This document shows positions 3 to 22,958 of a stretch of DNA of 64,000 nucleotides, piece by piece. The stretch is from the NCBI GenBank assembly GCA_047602405.1, contig JASGHJ010000001.1, positions 640,001 through 704,000 on the forward strand. The letters are read 5' to 3'. The notes under the pieces are model-generated. The model worked only from the letters and a program-made list of their open reading frames with translations, was not told the origin of the DNA and did no database searches. Made by a program: the position numbers and the translations under genes. Origin of the DNA: Anaeromyxobacteraceae bacterium (lineage in GTDB: Bacteria; Myxococcota; Myxococcia; Myxococcales; Anaeromyxobacteraceae). The number at the start of each line of letters is the position of its first letter. Positions within the stretch are counted from its first letter, which is position 1.

Positions 3-695
3 GACCGGAAGGTCGCGATCAGCGGCAAGGTCTACCAGGTGGTCGGGGTGATGGAGCGGCGCGGCCAGCTCCTCGGCATGAACATGGACGCGAACGCGAT
101 GGTCCCCTACTCCGCGTTCATGCAGGACTTCGGGAACCGCCGCTCGATCAACATCGCGGTGACCGCGAAGCCCGAGGACCTCTCCGGCCTCGAGGACCAG
201 CTCGTCGAGATCCTCCGCCGGGTCCGCCAGGTCCCGCCGGGCAAGAAGGACGACTTCTCGATCAACCGCCAGGAGCAGTTCATCCGCACCTACCAGCAGC
301 TCACCGGGGCCCTCTACTCGGTGGCGGTCGGCGTCGGCCTGATCACGCTCATCGTGGGCGGCATCGGCATCATGAACATCATGCTGGTGTCGGTCACCGA
401 GCGCACCCGCGAGATCGGCGTGCGGCGGGCGCTCGGCGCGCGGCGCTCGACCGTGCTGCTGCAGTTCCTCGTCGAGTCCGCCATCGTGGCGGCCGTCGGC
501 GGCGCGATCGGCACGGCGCTCGGCCTCGGGCTCGCGCAGATCATCGCGCTCGCGACCCCGCTCGCCGCGACCGTGAGCATCTCGGCGGTGTTCCTGGGCA
601 TCGGCTTCTCCGCCGCGGTGGGCCTGCTGTTCGGCAGCTGGCCGGCCTGGCGCGCGGCGCACCTCGATCCGGTGGAAGCGCTGAGGTACGAATGA
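3..695 (+). CDS. ABC transporter permease, MacB/FtsX family (5' partial)
   Basis: Frame is open from the window edge; GGIGIMNIMLVSVTERTREIGVRRALGA and PAWRAAHLDPVEALRYE signatures. Confidence 0.93.
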   Translation, partial: DRKVAISGKVYQVVGVMERRGQLLGMNMDANAMVPYSAFMQDFGNRRSINIAVTAKPEDLSGLEDQLVEILRRVRQVPPGKKDDFSINRQEQFIRTYQQLTGALYSVAVGVGLITLIVGGIGIMNIMLVSVTERTREIGVRRALGARRSTVLLQFLVESAIVAAVGGAIGTALGLGLAQIIALATPLAATVSISAVFLGIGFSAAVGLLFGSWPAWRAAHLDPVEALRYE

Positions 696-1924
696 CCGCC
701 CTCCTCGACACGATCGCGATGGCGCTCGGGACCCTCCGGGCGAACGTGCTGCGCTCCATCCTGACCCTCCTCGGGATCGTGATCGGGGCCGCCACGGTGG
801 TGGCGATGATGTCCTTCACCGAGGGGCTGCGGGTGAAGCTCGGCACCGACTTCGCCCAGCTCGGCGCCGGCGCCTTCCAGGTCCAGAAGTGGCCGGCGAT
901 GAGCTTCGGCCCGCGCGACTGGCGGAAGATCGAGCGCCGCCCCGACCTCACCCGCGAGCAGGGCGAGGCGCTGCGGTCGCTCCCGCACGTGCGGCACGTG
1001 TCGATCGAGGAGTACACGTTCAACCAGCCGCAGAAGCTCACCACGCGCGATCGCGCGACGAAGCAGAACATCGACGTCTGCGGCGGCCTCCCGGACTACG
1101 AGCCGGCGAACGGCGTGACCGTCGGGACCGGCCGGTTCCTCGTCGACACCGACATCCAGCTCGGGCGCCGGGTGGTCTTCATCGGCGCCGACGTGGCCGA
1201 CGCGCTCTTCCCCGGCATGGACCCCATCGGCCAGGAGGTCCGCATGCGCGGCGTCCCGTTCGAGGTCGTCGGGGTCGCGATGCGCAAGGGCTCGATGATG
1301 GGCCAGTCGAAGGACGGCTTCGCCGTCATCCCCTGGCCGGCGTTCGAGCGGGTGTACGGGAAGGCCCGCAACACCAACATCGCCATCGTGGCGTCCTCGC
1401 CCGCCGACGTGAAGGTCGCGCTCGAGGAGGTCGAGGCGAAGCTCCGCAAGCTCCGCGGCCTCGCCCCGCAGGACGAGAACGACTTCGACTACTACACCAA
1501 CGACACCGCGGCGGAGCTGTTCGACAACCTCGCCCGGATGGTCGCCGCGGCGACCGGCGGCATCTGCGCGCTCGCGCTGCTGGTGGGCGGCATCGGCATC
1601 ATGAACATCATGCTGGTGTCGGTCTCCGAGCGGACCCGCGAGATCGGGGTCAGGAAGGCCCTCGGCGCCCGGCGGGCCCGGATCCTGTCGCAGTTCCTGG
1701 TGGAGTCGGTCACCCTCTCGGTGCTCGGCGGCGTCCTGGGCGTCCTGCTCGGGGGTGGGATCGCCCTCGGCGCGAAGGCGATCCTGGACGTGCCGGCGAG
1801 CATCCCCGCCTGGGCGGTGGTACTCTCCCTCGTCCTCACGGGCGGGGCGGGCCTCGTGTTCGGCATCTACCCCGCCGCGCGAGCCTCCCGGCTCGATCCC
1901 GTCGAGGCGATGCGCACCGAATAG
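692..1924 (+). CDS. ABC transporter permease, MacB/FtsX family
   Basis: RSILTLLGIVIG N-terminal TM, periplasmic domain, GGIGIMNIMLVSV motif; ATGA overlap with the upstream gene. Confidence 0.93.
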   Translation: MTALLDTIAMALGTLRANVLRSILTLLGIVIGAATVVAMMSFTEGLRVKLGTDFAQLGAGAFQVQKWPAMSFGPRDWRKIERRPDLTREQGEALRSLPHVRHVSIEEYTFNQPQKLTTRDRATKQNIDVCGGLPDYEPANGVTVGTGRFLVDTDIQLGRRVVFIGADVADALFPGMDPIGQEVRMRGVPFEVVGVAMRKGSMMGQSKDGFAVIPWPAFERVYGKARNTNIAIVASSPADVKVALEEVEAKLRKLRGLAPQDENDFDYYTNDTAAELFDNLARMVAAATGGICALALLVGGIGIMNIMLVSVSERTREIGVRKALGARRARILSQFLVESVTLSVLGGVLGVLLGGGIALGAKAILDVPASIPAWAVVLSLVLTGGAGLVFGIYPAARASRLDPVEAMRTE

Positions 1925-1959
1925 GAGAACGCCGGCGCCCTGCGGCCGGCGCCGGCCTG

Positions 1960-3189
1960 ATGAGCTCGATCCTCGACACCATCGCGATGGCGCTCGGCAC
2001 CCTCCGCGCCAACGTCCTCCGCTCCGTCCTCACCCTCCTCGGCATCGTCATCGGCGCGGCCACCGTGGTCGCCATGATGTCGTTCACCGAGGGGCTCAAG
2101 GTGAAGCTCACCACCGACTTCGCCGAGCTCGGGGCGGGCACGTTCCAGGTGCAGAAGTGGCCGGCGATGGAGTTCGGCCACCGCGACTGGCGCAAGATCG
2201 AGAAGCGGCCGGACCTCACCCGCGAGCAAGGCGAGGCGATCCGCGACCTGCCGTACGTGAAGCACGTCTCGATCGAGGAGTACTCGCGCGCGCCCGAGAA
2301 GCTCACCACGCGCGAGCGCTCCACGAAGCAGAGCGTGGGCGTGGGCGGAGCGCTGCCCGACTACGAGCCGGCGAACGGCGTCCAGGTCGCCGACGGCCGC
2401 TTCCTCGTCGACACCGACATCCAGCTCGGGCGGCGGGTCATCTTCATCGCCGCCGACGTCGCCGACGCGCTCTTCCCGGACGGCGGCGCGGTGGGCGAGG
2501 AGGTGCGCCTGCGCGGCGTGCCCTTCGAGGTGGTCGGCGTGGCGGCGCGCAAGGGGGCGGTGCTCGGCCAGTCCCGCGACAACTGGGCGGTCGTCCCGTG
2601 GCCCTCCTTCGAGCGCGTGTGCGGCAAGAACCGCAACAACAACATCGCCATCCAGGCCACCTCGCCCGAGGACATGCCGAAGGCGATCGACGAGGTCATC
2701 GGGAAGCTCCGCCGGCTGCGCGGGCTCGCGCCGCAGGAGGAGAACGACTTCGACTGGTACTCGAACGACACCGCCGCCGAGCTGTTCAACAACCTCGCGG
2801 CGATGGTGGCCGCGGCGACGGGCGGCATCTGCGGCCTCGCGCTCCTCGTCGGCGGCATCGGGATCATGAACATCATGCTCGTGTCGGTGACCGAGCGGAC
2901 CCGCGAGATCGGCGTCCGCAAGGCGCTCGGTGCGCGGCGCGCCAGCATCCTCCGGCAGTTCCTGGTCGAGTCGGTGACCCTCTCGTTCATGGGTGGCGCC
3001 ATCGGCGTGCTGGTGGGCGCCGGGATCGCCCTCGGCGCGAAGGCCATCCTGGACGTCCCGGCGAGCGTCCCGGCGTGGGCAGTGCTACTCTCCCTCGCCT
3101 TGACCGGGGGGGCCGGCCTCCTCTTCGGCATCTACCCTGCCGCGCGGGCGTCGAAGCTCGACCCCGTCGAGGCGATGCGCACCGAGTAG
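1960..3189 (+). CDS. ABC transporter permease, MacB/FtsX family (close paralog of 692-1924)
   Basis: ATG at 1960 (MSSILDTIAMALG) aligns with the paralog start; same motifs. Confidence 0.92.
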   Translation: MSSILDTIAMALGTLRANVLRSVLTLLGIVIGAATVVAMMSFTEGLKVKLTTDFAELGAGTFQVQKWPAMEFGHRDWRKIEKRPDLTREQGEAIRDLPYVKHVSIEEYSRAPEKLTTRERSTKQSVGVGGALPDYEPANGVQVADGRFLVDTDIQLGRRVIFIAADVADALFPDGGAVGEEVRLRGVPFEVVGVAARKGAVLGQSRDNWAVVPWPSFERVCGKNRNNNIAIQATSPEDMPKAIDEVIGKLRRLRGLAPQEENDFDWYSNDTAAELFNNLAAMVAAATGGICGLALLVGGIGIMNIMLVSVTERTREIGVRKALGARRASILRQFLVESVTLSFMGGAIGVLVGAGIALGAKAILDVPASVPAWAVLLSLALTGGAGLLFGIYPAARASKLDPVEAMRTE

Positions 3190-3214: not shown

Positions 3215-3907
3215 GTGGAACGCGACAAGGTGATGAAGGAGATCCGCGGCTGGACCGTGACGATCCTGGCGGTCCTCGCGTTCCGGACGTTCCTCTACGA
3301 GGCGGTCTACATCCCGTCGGGCTCGATGATCCCGACGCTGCAGATCGGCGACTACGTCATCGTCGAGAAGTGGGCGTACGGCGCCCGGCTCCCGTTCACC
3401 GAGAGTGCGCAGGCGAGCTGGTCGTCCCCGAAGCGGGGCGACATCGTCGTGCTGCTCGCGCCCCCCGGCAACCCGCGCAACGACGACCTCATCAAGCGCG
3501 TCGTCGGCGTGGAGGGCGACACCGTCGAGATCCGCGACGGCTGGCTCGTCGTGAACGGCGAGCCCGTGCCGCGCGAGACCCTCTCCGGCGAGTGCACCTA
3601 CTGGGACAAGAACGAGGGCGGCCCGTGGCGGCAGGAGGACTGCGCCGACCACCTCGAGACCCTGGGCACCCACCGGTTCCACACCTACTGCAAGGCGAAC
3701 GGCCCCTGCGGCGACGACCTCGTGCCGACGAAGGTGCCGCCCGGCCACGTGTGGCTCGCCGGCGACCACCGCGACCGCTCGGCCGACTCGCGCTACTTCG
3801 GCCCGGTCCCGATCGGCCGCATCAAGGGCCGCGCGGTGATGGCGCTCGCGTCGTGGGGCCCGGACGGCCCGCGGTGGAACCGGCTGTTCCACTCGGTGAC
3901 GCACTAA
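3215..3907 (+). CDS. lepB: Signal peptidase I
   Basis: IPSGSMIPTL (catalytic Ser), LIKRVVG (catalytic Lys), GDHRDRSADSRYFG. Confidence 0.93.
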   Translation: MERDKVMKEIRGWTVTILAVLAFRTFLYEAVYIPSGSMIPTLQIGDYVIVEKWAYGARLPFTESAQASWSSPKRGDIVVLLAPPGNPRNDDLIKRVVGVEGDTVEIRDGWLVVNGEPVPRETLSGECTYWDKNEGGPWRQEDCADHLETLGTHRFHTYCKANGPCGDDLVPTKVPPGHVWLAGDHRDRSADSRYFGPVPIGRIKGRAVMALASWGPDGPRWNRLFHSVTH

Positions 3908-5844
3908 GAGCTTTCCCACAATTGCTCAAGCAAGTCGTGGGGCAGACCGGTTCGCCACCGGGCCCGCTCGGACGTGGTCTCCCGTGAGGAAGGCTCATTC
4001 CGGGTTGGGCCCGCGGCCGTGCCGGCGGTTCGCCGAGCCACCGGCGATGAGGCCGGTGTGGACGTCCGCCACGCGGGGCAACTGGCCTCGCGGGCGAAGA
4101 GGTCGTTTGACTCGGACCGGGTGTCTTGCCACCCGAGACACAGGTAGGGTGTGAGGAGGCGCTGGATTTCGGGGCGGGAGCCGTTTGCGGCGGCGTAGTC
4201 GACGCGCGCCGAGTCGGGTTCGCCGGAGAGGTCGAGCACGACGAAGCTCGCGAGCACCGCGGAGACGGCGTCGCGGTCGCCCTCGAGGCGACAGCGCGGG
4301 CAGCGGTGGACCCGGTCGGCGAGGGTCTTCGGCACGCGGGTGCCGCAGGGGCAATGCTGGGAGAGCGCGGTCGTGCGGGTGGGGATCCGGACGACGCCTC
4401 CCTTGGTCTGGGCGAGGCCTGCCACCGCCTTTGCCTCGCGGTCGATGGCCGAGACGAGCAGGCCCGGCGTGAATGCGGCCACGCCGCGGCCCCAGCGGCG
4501 CGCCCACGCGGAGATGTGGCCTTCCTCGGCGAAGATCCGGTAGCCGTGGGTTTGGACGACCTGGGCAGCCACGCGCCTGGCGCGGTCGCGGCGGGCCTGC
4601 ACCCCGGCAGCCGCGCTGGCGACCTCTTCGGCCCGAAGCCGCCGGTGACGGCGCGAGAGCTGGTCGCGCCGGTAGGCCTGGAGCGGCACGCCGTCTGACC
4701 TTGCGATCCTCGGCCCCTGGGGAATGACGTTCACGGGCGAGAGGCCAGCGGCGGCGCGTCGACGGGCGCGCTTCTCTTGCCGCTTCGACAGCCGGTACTG
4801 TTCCTGGTTGGCAGCGCGGCGGGACCGGTCCAGCGCCCGCTGCCTGCGGCGCTCGCGGCGGCGCCGGCCACGGTCGCGCTCCTTCGTGGCAAGGTCGCGC
4901 TCGATCCGCGTGAGGCGCAGGTCGCCTCCCGCCACCTGCGAGGCGATCGTCAGGTTCGATACGTTGACGTCCATCCCCGCGAGGCGGTCAGCCGCTGCGA
5001 CGGCGACCTCCGCCCGGCGCACCCTCGTGGCCGGCGAGACATAGGGCTCCTTCAGCACCATCAGGTGGGCTTCGTAACGCCAACCTCCCCGCGCGTGGGG
5101 CGCCCGGGTGCGGACGAGGTCGACCTTGTGCCAGAGGCTCGGGTCGGCGAGGTGGTAGTCGAGGATGGGTTGGTTGCACGGTGCCGTGGGCAGTCGCACC
5201 GGGAGGACCAGCGAGCCGTCGGCGAGCCCGCTGAACACGAGCATCAAAGGACCTTGGTAAGCCCACCAGTCGACGCGGCCGCCCGGGGCCGAGGGGGCTC
5301 CGAGGCGATGGCCCGCGAGCGACCCGTGCAGCCGGAAGGTCTCCCACTTCCGTGCCGTCGTGTGAGAGCGCGCGCGGCCGGGCAGCCTCCCGAAGTCGAA
5401 CCACCGTCCGACGTGGAGCAGTCCCTGCCGCTTTCCGGTCGCGTCGGGGAACAGGTGCCGCTCCGCCGGCGACCAGACCGAGTCGGCGAGGTGCATCGCG
5501 ATCGCCTTCGTGACGAAGCGCCGGAGGTGAGGTGCCGAGTCCAGAACGGCGTACGCGGTGTGCTCGAGCGCCCCCCGGCTGAGGCCGAGCCGGTCGCGCG
5601 TGCCCGCGACGTCCTGGGCCCGTTCGTGCTTCGCCGCCCAGCAGGCCCGCGTACGGTTCCGGGCCGCCCGCTGCAGCGCCCTCCGCACCCGGTACGCGTC
5701 CGCGAACATCCGCTCGAGCCGCCGACGCTGCTGGGGATCGTGGACGTCGAGCGCGAGCCGCAGGACCGACACGCCGTCCTCGGGCCGGCGTGCCCAGGGC
5801 TCCTGCTTGTTCGGACCGCGGGTCCGCCTGGGTTCGACTTCCAC
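3904..5844 (-). CDS. Large TnpB-like RuvC endonuclease (putatively RNA-guided)
   Basis: RuvC-I LAGMDVNVS, Arg-rich helix, RuvC-II RIFAEEG, Zn ribbon SQHCPCG...HRCPRC, RuvC-III DRDAVSA, in TnpB order; start codon uncertain. Confidence 0.8.
   Translation of the reverse strand: MEVEPRRTRGPNKQEPWARRPEDGVSVLRLALDVHDPQQRRRLERMFADAYRVRRALQRAARNRTRACWAAKHERAQDVAGTRDRLGLSRGALEHTAYAVLDSAPHLRRFVTKAIAMHLADSVWSPAERHLFPDATGKRQGLLHVGRWFDFGRLPGRARSHTTARKWETFRLHGSLAGHRLGAPSAPGGRVDWWAYQGPLMLVFSGLADGSLVLPVRLPTAPCNQPILDYHLADPSLWHKVDLVRTRAPHARGGWRYEAHLMVLKEPYVSPATRVRRAEVAVAAADRLAGMDVNVSNLTIASQVAGGDLRLTRIERDLATKERDRGRRRRERRRQRALDRSRRAANQEQYRLSKRQEKRARRRAAAGLSPVNVIPQGPRIARSDGVPLQAYRRDQLSRRHRRLRAEEVASAAAGVQARRDRARRVAAQVVQTHGYRIFAEEGHISAWARRWGRGVAAFTPGLLVSAIDREAKAVAGLAQTKGGVVRIPTRTTALSQHCPCGTRVPKTLADRVHRCPRCRLEGDRDAVSAVLASFVVLDLSGEPDSARVDYAAANGSRPEIQRLLTPYLCLGWQDTRSESNDLFAREASCPAWRTSTPASSPVARRTAGTAAGPTRNEPSSRETTSERARWRTGLPHDLLEQLWESS
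3907..4145 (-). ncRNA. Candidate omegaRNA/reRNA scaffold overlapping the 3' end of the TnpB-like gene
   Basis: Lies between RuvC-III and the element end; hairpins at 3915-3941, 4023-4035, 4039-4058 and 4118-4135; inferred by analogy with TnpB systems, boundaries unknown. Confidence 0.4.
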
Positions 5845-6694
5845 CTTTTCACTTTAAGCCGAAGCCCTGACAGGCGTTCAGGGCCTCCGAGCAGGCGCCC
5901 TGGACGAAGTGAGCGACGTTCGCGGTTCCAGGGACGTGTCCGTGTCCCTCATACCGACCCACCGACTGCTCACCCTCGCGTCCATGACAGGGCGCGACCT
6001 CGCTCGCCTCCGGCGCGTGCTCCCCGCGTCCAGGTGCCGGGGGCGTCCCTGCTCGAGCTCGCCGCTGCACCGTCTCCTCGTCGCCTGCATCGCGCTGCGC
6101 ACCAACCTCACCCTGCGCGAGCTCGCCGCCGTCGTCGGCCTCTCGAAGTCGACCGTCCATCGCATCGTCGCAGCCTTCACGCCGAGGCTCGCTGGCCTCG
6201 CTCGCCCTCCCGTCCGAAGAGATCGCCGCGAGACCTGGATCGTCGATGGGACCCTCATCCCCACTCGTGATCACGGCCGCGCTGCGAAATCCAAGAACTA
6301 CCGCTGGTCCTGCAACGCCCAGGTGCTCGTGCGCTGGCGAGACCGTCGCGTCGTGGCCACGTCTGCCGGCGGGCCGGGCAACCGAAACGACCCGTTTCAT
6401 TTTCGCGGCTCCGAAATCGAATCGCTTTGCCTCGACCACCGCCGTGTGCTCGCCGACGGAGGATACCGAGGCGTCACCGGCCTTCGCATCCCTGTCTTCA
6501 GGAGCACCAGGATCGTTCGGGATCGCGCCTGGCGCCGCCATCGTCGCCGCCGGGCTCGCGTCGAACACGTCCTCGCTCGCCTCAAAGACTGGCGCGTCCT
6601 GCGCGACCACCGCCGACGCGGCCGCCACCTCGCGGCCACCGTGGCAGCCGTCGCCGTCCTTCACAATCTCAAGCGAAACTTGTGGGACAGCTCT
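3907..6694. mobile_element. IS5-family-like element carrying a divergent TnpB-like nuclease gene
   Basis: Terminal inverted repeats AGAGCTTTCCCACAA (3907-3921) and AGAGCTGTCCCACAA (reverse complement of 6680-6694), 14/15 identical; TA duplicated at 3905-3906 and 6695-6696; encloses exactly two ORFs. Confidence 0.88.
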
Positions 6695-6697
6695 TAG
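5909..6697 (+). CDS. IS5-family DDE transposase (HTH + DDE_Tnp_4 type, ISL2/IS112-like)
   Basis: RTNLTLRELAAVVGLSKSTVHR HTH; VDGTLIP (D), SKNYRWS, GNRND, ADGGYRG (D), RARVEHVLARLKDW (E). Confidence 0.88.
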   Translation: MSDVRGSRDVSVSLIPTHRLLTLASMTGRDLARLRRVLPASRCRGRPCSSSPLHRLLVACIALRTNLTLRELAAVVGLSKSTVHRIVAAFTPRLAGLARPPVRRDRRETWIVDGTLIPTRDHGRAAKSKNYRWSCNAQVLVRWRDRRVVATSAGGPGNRNDPFHFRGSEIESLCLDHRRVLADGGYRGVTGLRIPVFRSTRIVRDRAWRRHRRRRARVEHVLARLKDWRVLRDHRRRGRHLAATVAAVAVLHNLKRNLWDSS

Positions 6698-7428
6698 CCG
6701 GCGGTCTCAGCCTCCCCGCCGCGCGCGAGCAGCCGCTCGAGGCTCCCGAGCACGAGCCCCAGTCCGACCTCGAACTCGTGCTCGTAGGACGAGGCGCGGC
6801 CGTTGCTCCCGGGCGGCGTCCGTCCCCTCACGAACGCCCACATCTCCCGGATGTTCGGGAGCGCGCCAGCCGGAAAGTCCGGCTGCGGGCCGCCGGCGGC
6901 CTCGCGCGCCGAGGCGATCCAGCTGACCTCCTGCAGCACGAAGCCGTAGATGAAGCTGTCGAGGAGGATGAGGGCGTCGTACGTCGCCTCGATCGAGAAC
7001 CCGGCCCCGCGCAGGATGCCGATCAGCGCCTCGAAGATGGGCAGCCGGGCGGAGCCGAAGTCCACCCGCGCCTCGATGAGCCCGGGCGCCCAGGGGTGCA
7101 GGAGGAGCACGCGGCGGGCGGCGCGGGCGCGGGTGCGCAGCGCCTCCTGCCAGGCGGAGCCCGCGTCCGGCACGCCGAACTCCCCCCCGACGAGGTCGAC
7201 GATGCCGTTGAGGAGGTCGTCCTTCCCGGCGACGTGGTTGTAGAGGGACATCGCCTCCACGCCGAGGGCGTCGCCGAGCCGGCGCATCGAGAGCGCGCCG
7301 AGCCCCTCCGCGTCGGCGAGCGCGATCGCCGCGCGCAGCACCCGCGCGCGGTCGAGGGGCGCGCGGGCCGGAGCGCGCCGTGGCGTGCGGCGGGCACCGC
7401 TCCGCGGTCCGGTCTGCCGCATCCCCAT
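6694..7428 (-). CDS. TetR-family transcriptional regulator with TetR_C-type domain
   Basis: ADAEGLGALSMRRLGDALGVEAMSLYNHVAGKDDLL HTH; AGGAGG RBS upstream. Confidence 0.9.
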   Translation of the reverse strand: MGMRQTGPRSGARRTPRRAPARAPLDRARVLRAAIALADAEGLGALSMRRLGDALGVEAMSLYNHVAGKDDLLNGIVDLVGGEFGVPDAGSAWQEALRTRARAARRVLLLHPWAPGLIEARVDFGSARLPIFEALIGILRGAGFSIEATYDALILLDSFIYGFVLQEVSWIASAREAAGGPQPDFPAGALPNIREMWAFVRGRTPPGSNGRASSYEHEFEVGLGLVLGSLERLLARGGEAETAG

Positions 7429-7444
7429 CCGGCCTCCTGTCACA

Positions 7445-21274: not shown

Positions 21275-22958
21275 CAGACCTGATTCCCGCTGAGGGGTCG
21301 CGGCGCGGGTACGGCGCCGGCGGCGCTTGAGGTTCCGACCTACTTCGCGAAGGGCACGGCTTTCGTGGCGCGGGTGAGTTCTTCCCCCGGTGGCCGCGGT
21401 TTCCTGATCGGCAAGATCGACGGGCGGATCGGGCCCGGCGATCATCGCCTCCGCGCAATGAGAAGGGGTGGAGCCAAGGCCGGCCCCACCCCCAAGACGG
21501 CCGAACTCGCGCAAACGAGAAGAGGCCGGGAGGCAGGAGATCATGCCGATCACCGAAGCACAAGCCCGGCGTGCGTTGCGGCACGCCGACATCCCCTGGG
21601 ACCGGGAGGTGGACGACCCGCGCGAGGATCCGTGGGTCGTTCACGACCACTACGGTCTGCTCGGCGGCCTCGCCGCCGCGTTCGCCGTGGGCCGGTACCG
21701 GCTGCGGCACGCCGAGAACTTCCTCGCCGATCTTGGCGTGGGCGCGCGTCGCGCGCTCGGCCTCGGCCGGCGGACGCCGAGCGACACGACGCTCTACAGG
21801 CTGCTGGCCGGGCAGGACGCGGCGGGTTTCGAGGAGACCGTCTTCGCCCAGGTGAAGGACCTCGTCGCGCGGAAGGTCGTGAAGCACGACCGGTTCCGCG
21901 TCGGAGTCGTGAGCTTCGACGGCAAGGGCACCTGGTCGCGGACCGACGGCGAGCCGGTCGAAGGCGCAAAGCGGGCGGTCGACGATTTCCACGGGGTGAC
22001 GATCCAGAGCTTCGGCGCGATGCGCGCGGCGCTCACCTCGTCGTCCGTGTGCCCGTGCGTCGGGCAGAAGGTCATCGGCTCCAAGGAGGGCGAGGTCCCC
22101 GCCTTCCGCGAGCTCTTCCCACGCGTGTGCGAGGCGCTGGGAGAGCGCTTCAAGATCATCACCGGCGATGCGGGTCTGTGCGCGCGAGAGAGCGCCGAGC
22201 TCGTGGCCGAGCGCGGTCGCTGGTACCTCTTCACGCTGAAGGGAAACCAGCCTCACCTGCACGGCCTCGCGAGCGACTTCCGCTGCTACGAGATGGGCGT
22301 GCCGCTGGCGCGGACGACGGACCGGTACCGCGGTCACAGCGTCGTGCGGGAACTCTACGCCGTCGACGTCGCGGGCAGCCGCATGGTCGACATCGCCGAC
22401 GCTCAACAGCTCTGGTACGTCTGCCAGACTACCTACGCACCGAACGGCGGGTGCGTCGCCGTCGAGCAGCGGTACTTCGTCACCTCGATCCCCTCGCGCA
22501 CCTTCTCGCGCGGCGAGGAACTCGCCCTCGTGCGCCTGCACTGGGCCATCGAGAACGGCTGTCACTGGGCGATGGACGTCGCGCTTCGCGAGGACGAGGC
22601 GCAGCCCTGCCAGGTGAGCCGAGCGGCCATCGAGGCCGTCAGCTGGCTGCGCATCATCGGCTACAACGCCGTCAGCGCCTGGCGACAGCTCGCACCGCAG
22701 AAGGACCGAAAGCCCATCAGCTGGGAGCGCGCGAAGGAGACCCTCCGCGACGCGCTGGTGCTCGCCGGACGCGATCACCTCGAGCCGCTCTCAGCCGACA
22801 CCTGAACCCACGGCCGGCCGCCGTCCCCCCTCCTCCTTGCGCGCGACAACCGAGAACGTCCCCGGCCCTCGGCCGCTGCCGACCTTCGTCTTCACGTCGC
22901 GGCAGGACCCTTGAACCGGCAGACGTACCTGAACCCCACCGAACGCGGATCAGGTCTG
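21275..22958 (+). mobile_element. ISAs1-family insertion sequence, 1684 bp
   Basis: TIR CAGACCTGAT at both ends; 10-bp direct repeat AAATGTCAGA at 21265-21274 and 22959-22968. Confidence 0.92.
21543..22805 (+). CDS. ISAs1-family transposase
   Basis: DDPR, PSDTTLYRLL, SFDGK, TGDAG, LKGNQPHL, RYFVTS, HWAIENGCHWAMDV. Confidence 0.92.
   Translation: MPITEAQARRALRHADIPWDREVDDPREDPWVVHDHYGLLGGLAAAFAVGRYRLRHAENFLADLGVGARRALGLGRRTPSDTTLYRLLAGQDAAGFEETVFAQVKDLVARKVVKHDRFRVGVVSFDGKGTWSRTDGEPVEGAKRAVDDFHGVTIQSFGAMRAALTSSSVCPCVGQKVIGSKEGEVPAFRELFPRVCEALGERFKIITGDAGLCARESAELVAERGRWYLFTLKGNQPHLHGLASDFRCYEMGVPLARTTDRYRGHSVVRELYAVDVAGSRMVDIADAQQLWYVCQTTYAPNGGCVAVEQRYFVTSIPSRTFSRGEELALVRLHWAIENGCHWAMDVALREDEAQPCQVSRAAIEAVSWLRIIGYNAVSAWRQLAPQKDRKPISWERAKETLRDALVLAGRDHLEPLSADT

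What the first reader, a model, noticed from the sequence alone, without database searches (positions are those of the whole stretch)
3887..4145. Candidate omegaRNA ending at the TIR, with a guide taken from the lepB flank
Seen: after RuvC-III the minus strand is rich in hairpins (CGGGTG/CACCCG 4118-4135; CACCGGC/GCCGGTG 4039-4058; CGGCG/CGCCG 4023-4035). An imperfect stem-loop at 3915-3941 includes part of the left TIR, and I see no counterpart at the right end. Known: TnpB guide RNAs overlap the gene 3' end and take their spacer from DNA flanking the element end. Inference: the guide would be about TAGTGCGTCACCGAGTGGAA (reverse complement of 3887-3906), targeting the empty site ...GCCGGC-TA-GTGCG..., which differs from the occupied site (...GCTCT-TA-GTGCG...) immediately 5' of the target. 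High GC makes chance hairpins likely.
Basis: inference. Interest (0 to 1): 0.72.

Follow-up and report, generated by a model that had tools for sequence, protein, structure and literature searches.

The report
Guide RNA of IS5-borne TnpB nuclease
A cut-and-paste jumping gene carries an RNA-guided DNA-cutter gene whose end holds a conserved, base-paired RNA structure that is likely its guide RNA and is predicted to aim the cutter at the element's own empty landing site (CTAG); the pairing of such genes was known, but the guide's shape and target can now be tested.

Summary
Window 3907-6694 is a mobile IS5-type element (15-bp TIRs, TA duplication in a CTAG target; six copies in this genome) with a TnpB whose RuvC triad is intact. 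Across 47 homologous ends, conservation runs from about 4137 through TIR, TA and one further G, then collapses at 3903. A 64-pair structure is 92% paired in 39 sequences, 34 pairs with double changes; third codon positions are as conserved as the others, so the constraint is not protein. A pseudoknot joins the first hairpin loop (AAGA, 4127-4124) to UCUU (3909-3906), which includes the first base of the duplicated TA; it is kept in 47 of 47 ends, with a double change on two branches. In the ISDra2 register this puts the guide start at 3903 and predicts TAM CTAG, one base from the occupied TTAG. Three of the four hairpins named hold; 4023-4035 does not. No transcript or cleavage was tested. DDE-associated TnpBs were published in 2023; I found no description of their omegaRNA or TAM in the searches run.

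The parts
3904..4137 (-). omegaRNA scaffold (about 234 nt), overlapping the tnpB tail, the TIR, the TA duplication and the fixed target G
   Evidence: conservation rises from 0.28 to 0.78 at 4137; 64-pair structure; covariance model ends at 3904 in held-out loci
4118..4135 (-). first hairpin; loop GCAAGA holds the pseudoknot strand AAGA (4127-4124)
3906..3909 (-). 3' pseudoknot strand UCUU: last three TIR bases plus the T of the duplication
   Evidence: 47 of 47 ends complementary to their own loop; A-U to G-C double change in 4 sequences on two branches
4033..4115 (-). 5' domain: long-range helix 4115-4110/4038-4033 closing hairpins 4104-4061 and 4058-4039
3946..4026 (-). long interrupted stem: 4026-4022/3950-3946, 4017-4007/3965-3954, 4002-3999/3972-3969, capped by hairpin 3992-3979
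   Evidence: strongest covariation: 3991:3980, 4001:3970, 4025:3947
3913..3943 (-). terminal stem-loop that takes in the inner half of the TIR
   Evidence: its five basal pairs are 81% paired with no double change
3884..3903 (-). predicted guide (length not known; 16-20 nt assumed), from the lepB 3' end, antisense to lepB mRNA
   Evidence: first variable flank position is 3903; register by analogy with ISDra2; inference
3904..3906 (+). target C and left TA duplication (TAG on the minus strand; also the tnpB stop codon)
3907..3921 (+). left (omega-side) TIR, 15 bp, with a private change at 3913
3904..5844 (-). tnpB, 646 aa ORF; about 565 aa folded core, D292/E440/D525, C4 zinc finger; tail runs through the RNA
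5909..6697 (+). IS5-type DDE transposase, 262 aa, ending in the right TIR plus duplication
6680..6694 (+). right (transposase-side) TIR
6695..6697 (+). right TA duplication and target G
3215..3907 (+). lepB signal peptidase I; its stop codon lies at the left junction and it supplies the guide
6694..7443 (-). TetR-family regulator gene; its stop codon lies at the right junction

Best explanation
The region 3904-4137 is a conserved structured RNA at the end of a TnpB-carrying IS5-type element and is likely the TnpB omegaRNA, predicted to use the flank from 3903 as guide and to cut empty CTAG sites so that the element would be restored or spread. Shown: element ends, CTAG target with TA duplication, intact RuvC triad, Cas12f/TnpB-like fold of the model, RNA-type conservation and covariation, complementarity of the loop to the 3' end. 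Inferred: transcription from the tnpB mRNA through the TIR into lepB; the scaffold takes in the duplicated TA and the fixed G (UCUU pseudoknot strand at -6 to -3, A at -2, G at -1, as in ISDra2); TAM = CTAG, the transposase's own target; the occupied junction reads TTAG and would be spared by one base; a cut at an empty allele (after precise excision, or on an incoming or sister DNA) would be repaired from an occupied copy.
For: Six copies in this genome, each with a different flank, two 99.9% identical. Orthologous sites without the element show a single CTAG in 5 of 10 comparisons, CTAC in 2, a different sequence at the window's own site, 2 not alignable. Fixed C before TA at the far end in 27 of 28 (the exception is a register shift), fixed G after TA in 47 of 47 (45 of 45 where the search did not require it). 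92.4% of 2490 cells paired against 81.8% shuffled and 34-40% slid; 34 of 64 pairs with double changes. In a tree-aware test the 11 best of 29,646 column pairs are all canonical pairs in predicted helices, 7 with E < 1. Codon-position identity flat (0.68/0.63/0.71) and pN/pS 0.92-1.13 in the RNA, against 0.68/0.72/0.51 and 0.60 just upstream. G-U cells outnumber A-C cells 156 to 75, favouring the tnpB strand. Model built without them finds 6 of 8 actinobacterial ends full length, ending at the TAG; none in 8 TnpB-free IS5 loci. Pseudoknot: 47 of 47 omega ends against 17 of 28 transposase ends of the same elements; 0 of 31 ends of TnpB-free relatives end in TCT. Precedent for the register: ISDra2; fixed flank bases and TSDs in the scaffold of IS607 TnpB and Fanzors.
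Against: No transcript, binding or cleavage data. The pseudoknot's one varying pair is not significant alone in the tree-aware test (E 17) and rests on two events; two of its pairs never vary. The omega ends were located with a motif that contains the pseudoknot strand (3 mismatches allowed), which favours agreement. CTAG targeting predates TnpB (26 of 31 TnpB-free ends have G), so the fixed G does not by itself prove it is scaffold. The covariation null is home-made, and sequences are related. Cut-and-paste excision need not give a clean empty site; the review read calls the benefit of TnpB to DDE elements uncertain. The window's own empty site was not found in a relative.
Confidence: 0.8

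Rival explanations
1. Same omegaRNA, but the scaffold ends with the duplicated TA as in Fanzor1; the guide starts with the fixed G at 3904 and the TAM is CTA.
For: TSDs form the scaffold end in Fanzor1 and Fanzor2*; the G is fixed by the transposase even without TnpB, so it could be a constant first guide base.
Against: ISDra2 has two unpaired or non-canonical bases after the last pseudoknot pair, which here are A and G; IS607 TnpB moved its fixed flank base into the scaffold.
Confidence: 0.25
2. One reading: scaffold ends at the TIR, guide starts TAG (3906), TAM lies in the flank upstream.
For: In IS200/IS605 the scaffold ends at the element boundary.
Against: The T at 3906 is paired in the pseudoknot; only one upstream base is fixed.
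Confidence: 0.04
3. The conservation reflects protein coding in the open tnpB tail or DNA sites for the transposase, and the hairpins are a by-product of high G+C.
For: The frame is open to the junction TAG in 33 of 47 ends; single-sequence folding is only z -2.1.
Against: pN/pS near 1, flat codon positions; compensatory changes; no such structure at the transposase end or in TnpB-free relatives; Mycobacterium ends change the whole first stem but keep the loop.
Confidence: 0.03
4. The RNA guides TnpB but the complex binds without useful cutting at the donor site, for example silencing, or acting on the flank gene's transcript (the guide is antisense to lepB).
For: Structural neighbours include Cas12m; benefit of cutting to a DDE element is unclear.
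Against: D292, E440 and D525 are each present in about 50 of the 53-58 homologous proteins that cover them; transposase-less copies keep an intact tnpB and RNA.
Confidence: 0.1

Closest known systems
DDE-transposase-associated TnpB branches DDE-1 to DDE-6 (Altae-Tran et al. 2023, PMC10691335; section 9, passages and the one supplementary PDF read); named ISL2, IS630, IS1031 in the review PMC13565253 (section 20 and passages read)
   Same: TnpB inside inverted repeats with a DDE transposase; solo tnpB copies with the same ends; tnpB 3' end near the element end; recent mobility.
   Different: What I read gives no omegaRNA structure, guide register or TAM for these branches. Whether this family is one of DDE-1 to DDE-6 could not be tested: the paper's additional data files are not held.
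ISDra2 TnpB omegaRNA (PMC10097598; passages read)
   Same: RNA overlaps a dispensable-looking tnpB tail; pseudoknot between an upstream loop and the 3' end, last standard pair at -3.
   Different: Y1 transposase, no TIR or TSD; 116-nt core against about 234 nt here; 408 aa against about 565 aa core; scaffold ends at the element boundary.
IS607 TnpB (ISXfa1), Fanzor2* and Fanzor1 (PMC10711439; section 25 and passages read)
   Same: Fixed flank bases or TSD taken into the scaffold; pseudoknot kept in IS607 (tested) and Fanzor2* (predicted); TIR forms part of the scaffold.
   Different: Serine recombinase or eukaryotic transposons; Fanzor1 lost the pseudoknot. Here a bacterial IS5-type element would absorb both the TSD and one further target base.
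TnpB-free IS5-like elements of Streptomyces (one annotated as IS1373 family)
   Same: Transposase about 42-50% identical, same TIR core and 5-base terminal spacing, TA duplication, mostly CTAG target.
   Different: No tnpB, no match to the RNA model, different last three TIR bases.

Membership tests
TnpB omegaRNA | Lies at the tnpB 3' end and runs to the element end | tested here: met
TnpB omegaRNA | Conserved secondary structure with compensatory changes | tested here: met
TnpB omegaRNA | Variable flank directly after a conserved scaffold | tested here: met
   information falls from 2.0 to 0.03 bits between 3904 and 3903
TnpB omegaRNA | Pseudoknot between an upstream loop and the scaffold 3' end | tested here: met
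   47 of 47 complementary, double change on two branches; not significant alone
TnpB omegaRNA | Expressed, bound by TnpB, directs TAM-dependent cleavage | not testable with these tools
   needs RNP sequencing and cleavage assays
TnpB/Cas12 RuvC nuclease | TnpB/Cas12f fold with RuvC D-E-D triad and C4 zinc finger | tested here: met
   model pLDDT 94.8; Foldseek best hits Cas12f, Cas12m, TnpB, E about 1e-10 to 1e-7; triad conserved; Pfam and NCBIfam hits below their cut-offs
IS200/IS605 or IS607 | Y1 or serine transposase, no TIR, no TSD | tested here: not met
   DDE transposase, 15-bp TIRs, TA duplication
IS5-type insertion sequence | DDE_Tnp_4/HTH transposase, short TIRs, short TSD | tested here: met
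   NCBIfam IS5 model hit is below its cut-off; subgroup not assigned by any search
DDE-1 to DDE-6 TnpB branches | Placement in one of the published tree branches | not testable with these tools
   alignments and loci of that paper are not held

The most novel reading that the evidence does not exclude
A bacterial cut-and-paste element has rewired a large TnpB so that one four-base word, CTAG, is at once the transposase target, the nuclease TAM, the end of the guide scaffold and the stop codon of both element genes; TnpB tells empty from occupied by a single base and re-cuts donor sites sealed cleanly at the TA (the host has Ku), giving a prokaryotic parallel to the Fanzor solution that keeps the pseudoknot, and an untested nuclease family with a rare palindromic TAM.
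Probability: 0.4. Interest if true: 0.7.

Novelty: new variant of a known kind. Interest (0 to 1): 0.52.

Why it matters
Whether and how TnpB serves cut-and-paste (DDE) elements in bacteria is stated as open in a 2026 review. This family gives a defined scaffold, a guide start and a TAM prediction that one depletion assay can test, in an element that is recently mobile and spread over Myxococcota and Actinomycetota. It would also add a divergent, roughly 565-aa RNA-guided nuclease with a CTAG TAM. The general arrangement is already published, which caps the surprise.

Tried and rejected
Rfam: no match in the region. Viral contigs: no relative. Sequencing runs: no RNA holder listed, all shares under 0.1, none laid; this says nothing on expression. 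Promoter scan: none found. Single-sequence fold of TnpB was poor (pLDDT 39.8) and was replaced by the alignment model. The window's own empty site: 29 lepB orthologues examined, none carries the element; many end in CTAG but the closest ends differently, so no exact empty allele. Insertion at host stop codons: 5 of 6 copies have a long frame ending there, but so do 65% of all CTAG sites; no enrichment. Guides have no close second CTAG-flanked match in the genome (0-2 hits with 2 mismatches in 12 nt). A 3- or 4-bp duplication was rejected: the two junctions share only TA. Left out of alignment A1 (9 of 48 ends): one truncated, one internally deleted, one duplicate, six divergent actinobacterial ends (used as held-out test; model missed one and found one only partly). 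Literature: seven searches found no omegaRNA or TAM for an IS5/DDE-linked prokaryotic TnpB; subscription papers and the additional files of PMC10691335 were not visible. PMC11423790 was searched for four terms with no hit.

Full report
The element. Window 3907-6694 is bounded by 15-bp inverted repeats with TA on each side. It holds a 262-aa DDE transposase on the plus strand (DDE_Tnp_1, DDE_Tnp_4; weak IS5 model hit) and a divergent 646-aa ORF on the minus strand with weak TnpB hits. An alignment-based model of the first 565 residues is confident (pLDDT 94.8) and matches Cas12f, Cas12m and TnpB structures; D292, E440, D525 and the zinc finger are conserved. The genome has six copies with different flanks plus one fragment; four lack part or most of the transposase but keep tnpB and the RNA, and two are 99.9% identical. 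Relatives occur in Anaeromyxobacter, Kofleriaceae and other Myxococcota records and in Nonomuraea, Streptomyces, Euzebya and Mycobacterium, with the same divergent gene layout where annotated.

The target. Every copy reads C-TA at one end and TA-G at the other. Of ten comparisons with orthologous sites lacking the element, five show a single CTAG, two CTAC, the window's own site differs, two could not be aligned. TnpB-free relatives have the same TIR core and mostly the same target (26 of 31 ends), so the preference is older than the tnpB capture.

The RNA. I collected 48 distinct 3' ends; five further hits lacked a motif match, three cut short by a locus end and two Streptomyces loci with a divergent TIR that also ends TCTTAG. 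Identity falls to 0.28 at 4152-4138, rises to about 0.8 at 4137 and stays high to the end; codon positions are equally conserved and pN/pS is near 1, unlike the RuvC-III stretch upstream. For 39 ends, RNAalifold gave 47 pairs, 28 with double changes. A refined 64-pair structure is 92.4% paired against 81.8% shuffled and 34-40% slid; it was derived from this alignment, so it leans towards it. An independent all-against-all covariation test with a parsimony-based null ranked 11 canonical helix pairs first among 29,646, three above every null value. A covariance model found 6 of 8 held-out actinobacterial ends full length and nothing in 8 TnpB-free loci.

The 3' boundary. Conservation continues through T, A and G beyond the TIR and vanishes at 3903. 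The loop of the first hairpin (AAGA) is complementary to UCUU at 3909-3906 in 47 of 47 ends; four ends on two separate branches change both partners. The equivalent bases at the transposase end fit in only 17 of 28, and no TnpB-free end of 31 has TCT. This pair is not significant alone, and the motif used to find the ends favours agreement. In ISDra2 the last standard pseudoknot pair is at -3, followed by two scaffold bases (PMC10097598, passages). The same register here gives A at -2, G at -1 and guide position 1 at 3903, the first variable base. IS607 TnpB and Fanzors likewise move fixed flank bases or the TSD into the scaffold (PMC10711439, section 25 and passages). Empty CTAG and occupied TTAG differ at one base.

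Mechanism. Shown: mobility, target, intact nuclease, RNA-type constraint. Inferred from established TnpB biology (review PMC13565253, section 20 and passages): the RNA is made from the tnpB transcript, loads TnpB and directs a cut at empty alleles, repaired from an occupied copy. How a cut-and-paste element leaves a clean empty site is not shown; end joining at the TA is one route and the genome has a Ku gene; homing into incoming empty alleles is another.

Unexplained. The tnpB frame stays open through the whole RNA and stops at the junction TAG in 33 of 47 ends (5 stop earlier, 9 run past) although the tail peptide is unconstrained. Selection against read-through into the guide is a guess.

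Known work. TnpBs with DDE transposases and inverted ends, and solo copies with the same ends, were reported in PMC10691335 (section 9, passages, supplementary PDF). Seven literature searches found no RNA structure or TAM for them. Two earlier notes of this scan describe what may be the same family; they are not independent evidence.

Verdict. Real omegaRNA candidate with strong comparative support, corrected guide register, function untested; a new variant of a known kind.

Noticed in passing
window 21275-22958: A 1.68-kb insertion sequence with a 447-aa transposase-like ORF; a 99.6% identical copy sits between tnpA and tnpB in the element copy at G000:C2:797490-801975. Family not determined.
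   Followed up: partly
window 3904-3907 and 6694-6697: The element landed on the overlapping stop codons of convergent lepB and tetR; both genes keep a stop (TAA) made with the TIR, and both element ORFs end in TAG made with the target G.
   Followed up: yes
window 3913: The window copy has a private change in the left TIR (1 of 47 ends) that breaks one basal pair of the terminal stem but not the pseudoknot.
   Followed up: partly
L079:592-800 (G000:C2:2661892 onwards): A one-ended relic with the TIR and the last 85 bases of the RNA joined to a piece of the zinc-finger coding region.
   Followed up: partly
G000:C2:797490-801975 and C2:2144174-2146377: Two copies have a one-base loss in the RNA-overlapped tail, so the tnpB frame runs past the junction; the nuclease core is unaffected.
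   Followed up: partly
order of G302: The tnpB was found in 24 of 147 genomes of that order against 7 of 301 in the window's order and 3 of 401 in the actinomycete class sample.
   Followed up: no
window 39-3189: Tandem near-duplicate ABC-type permease genes upstream of lepB; label from the sequence's look, no family search run.
   Followed up: no
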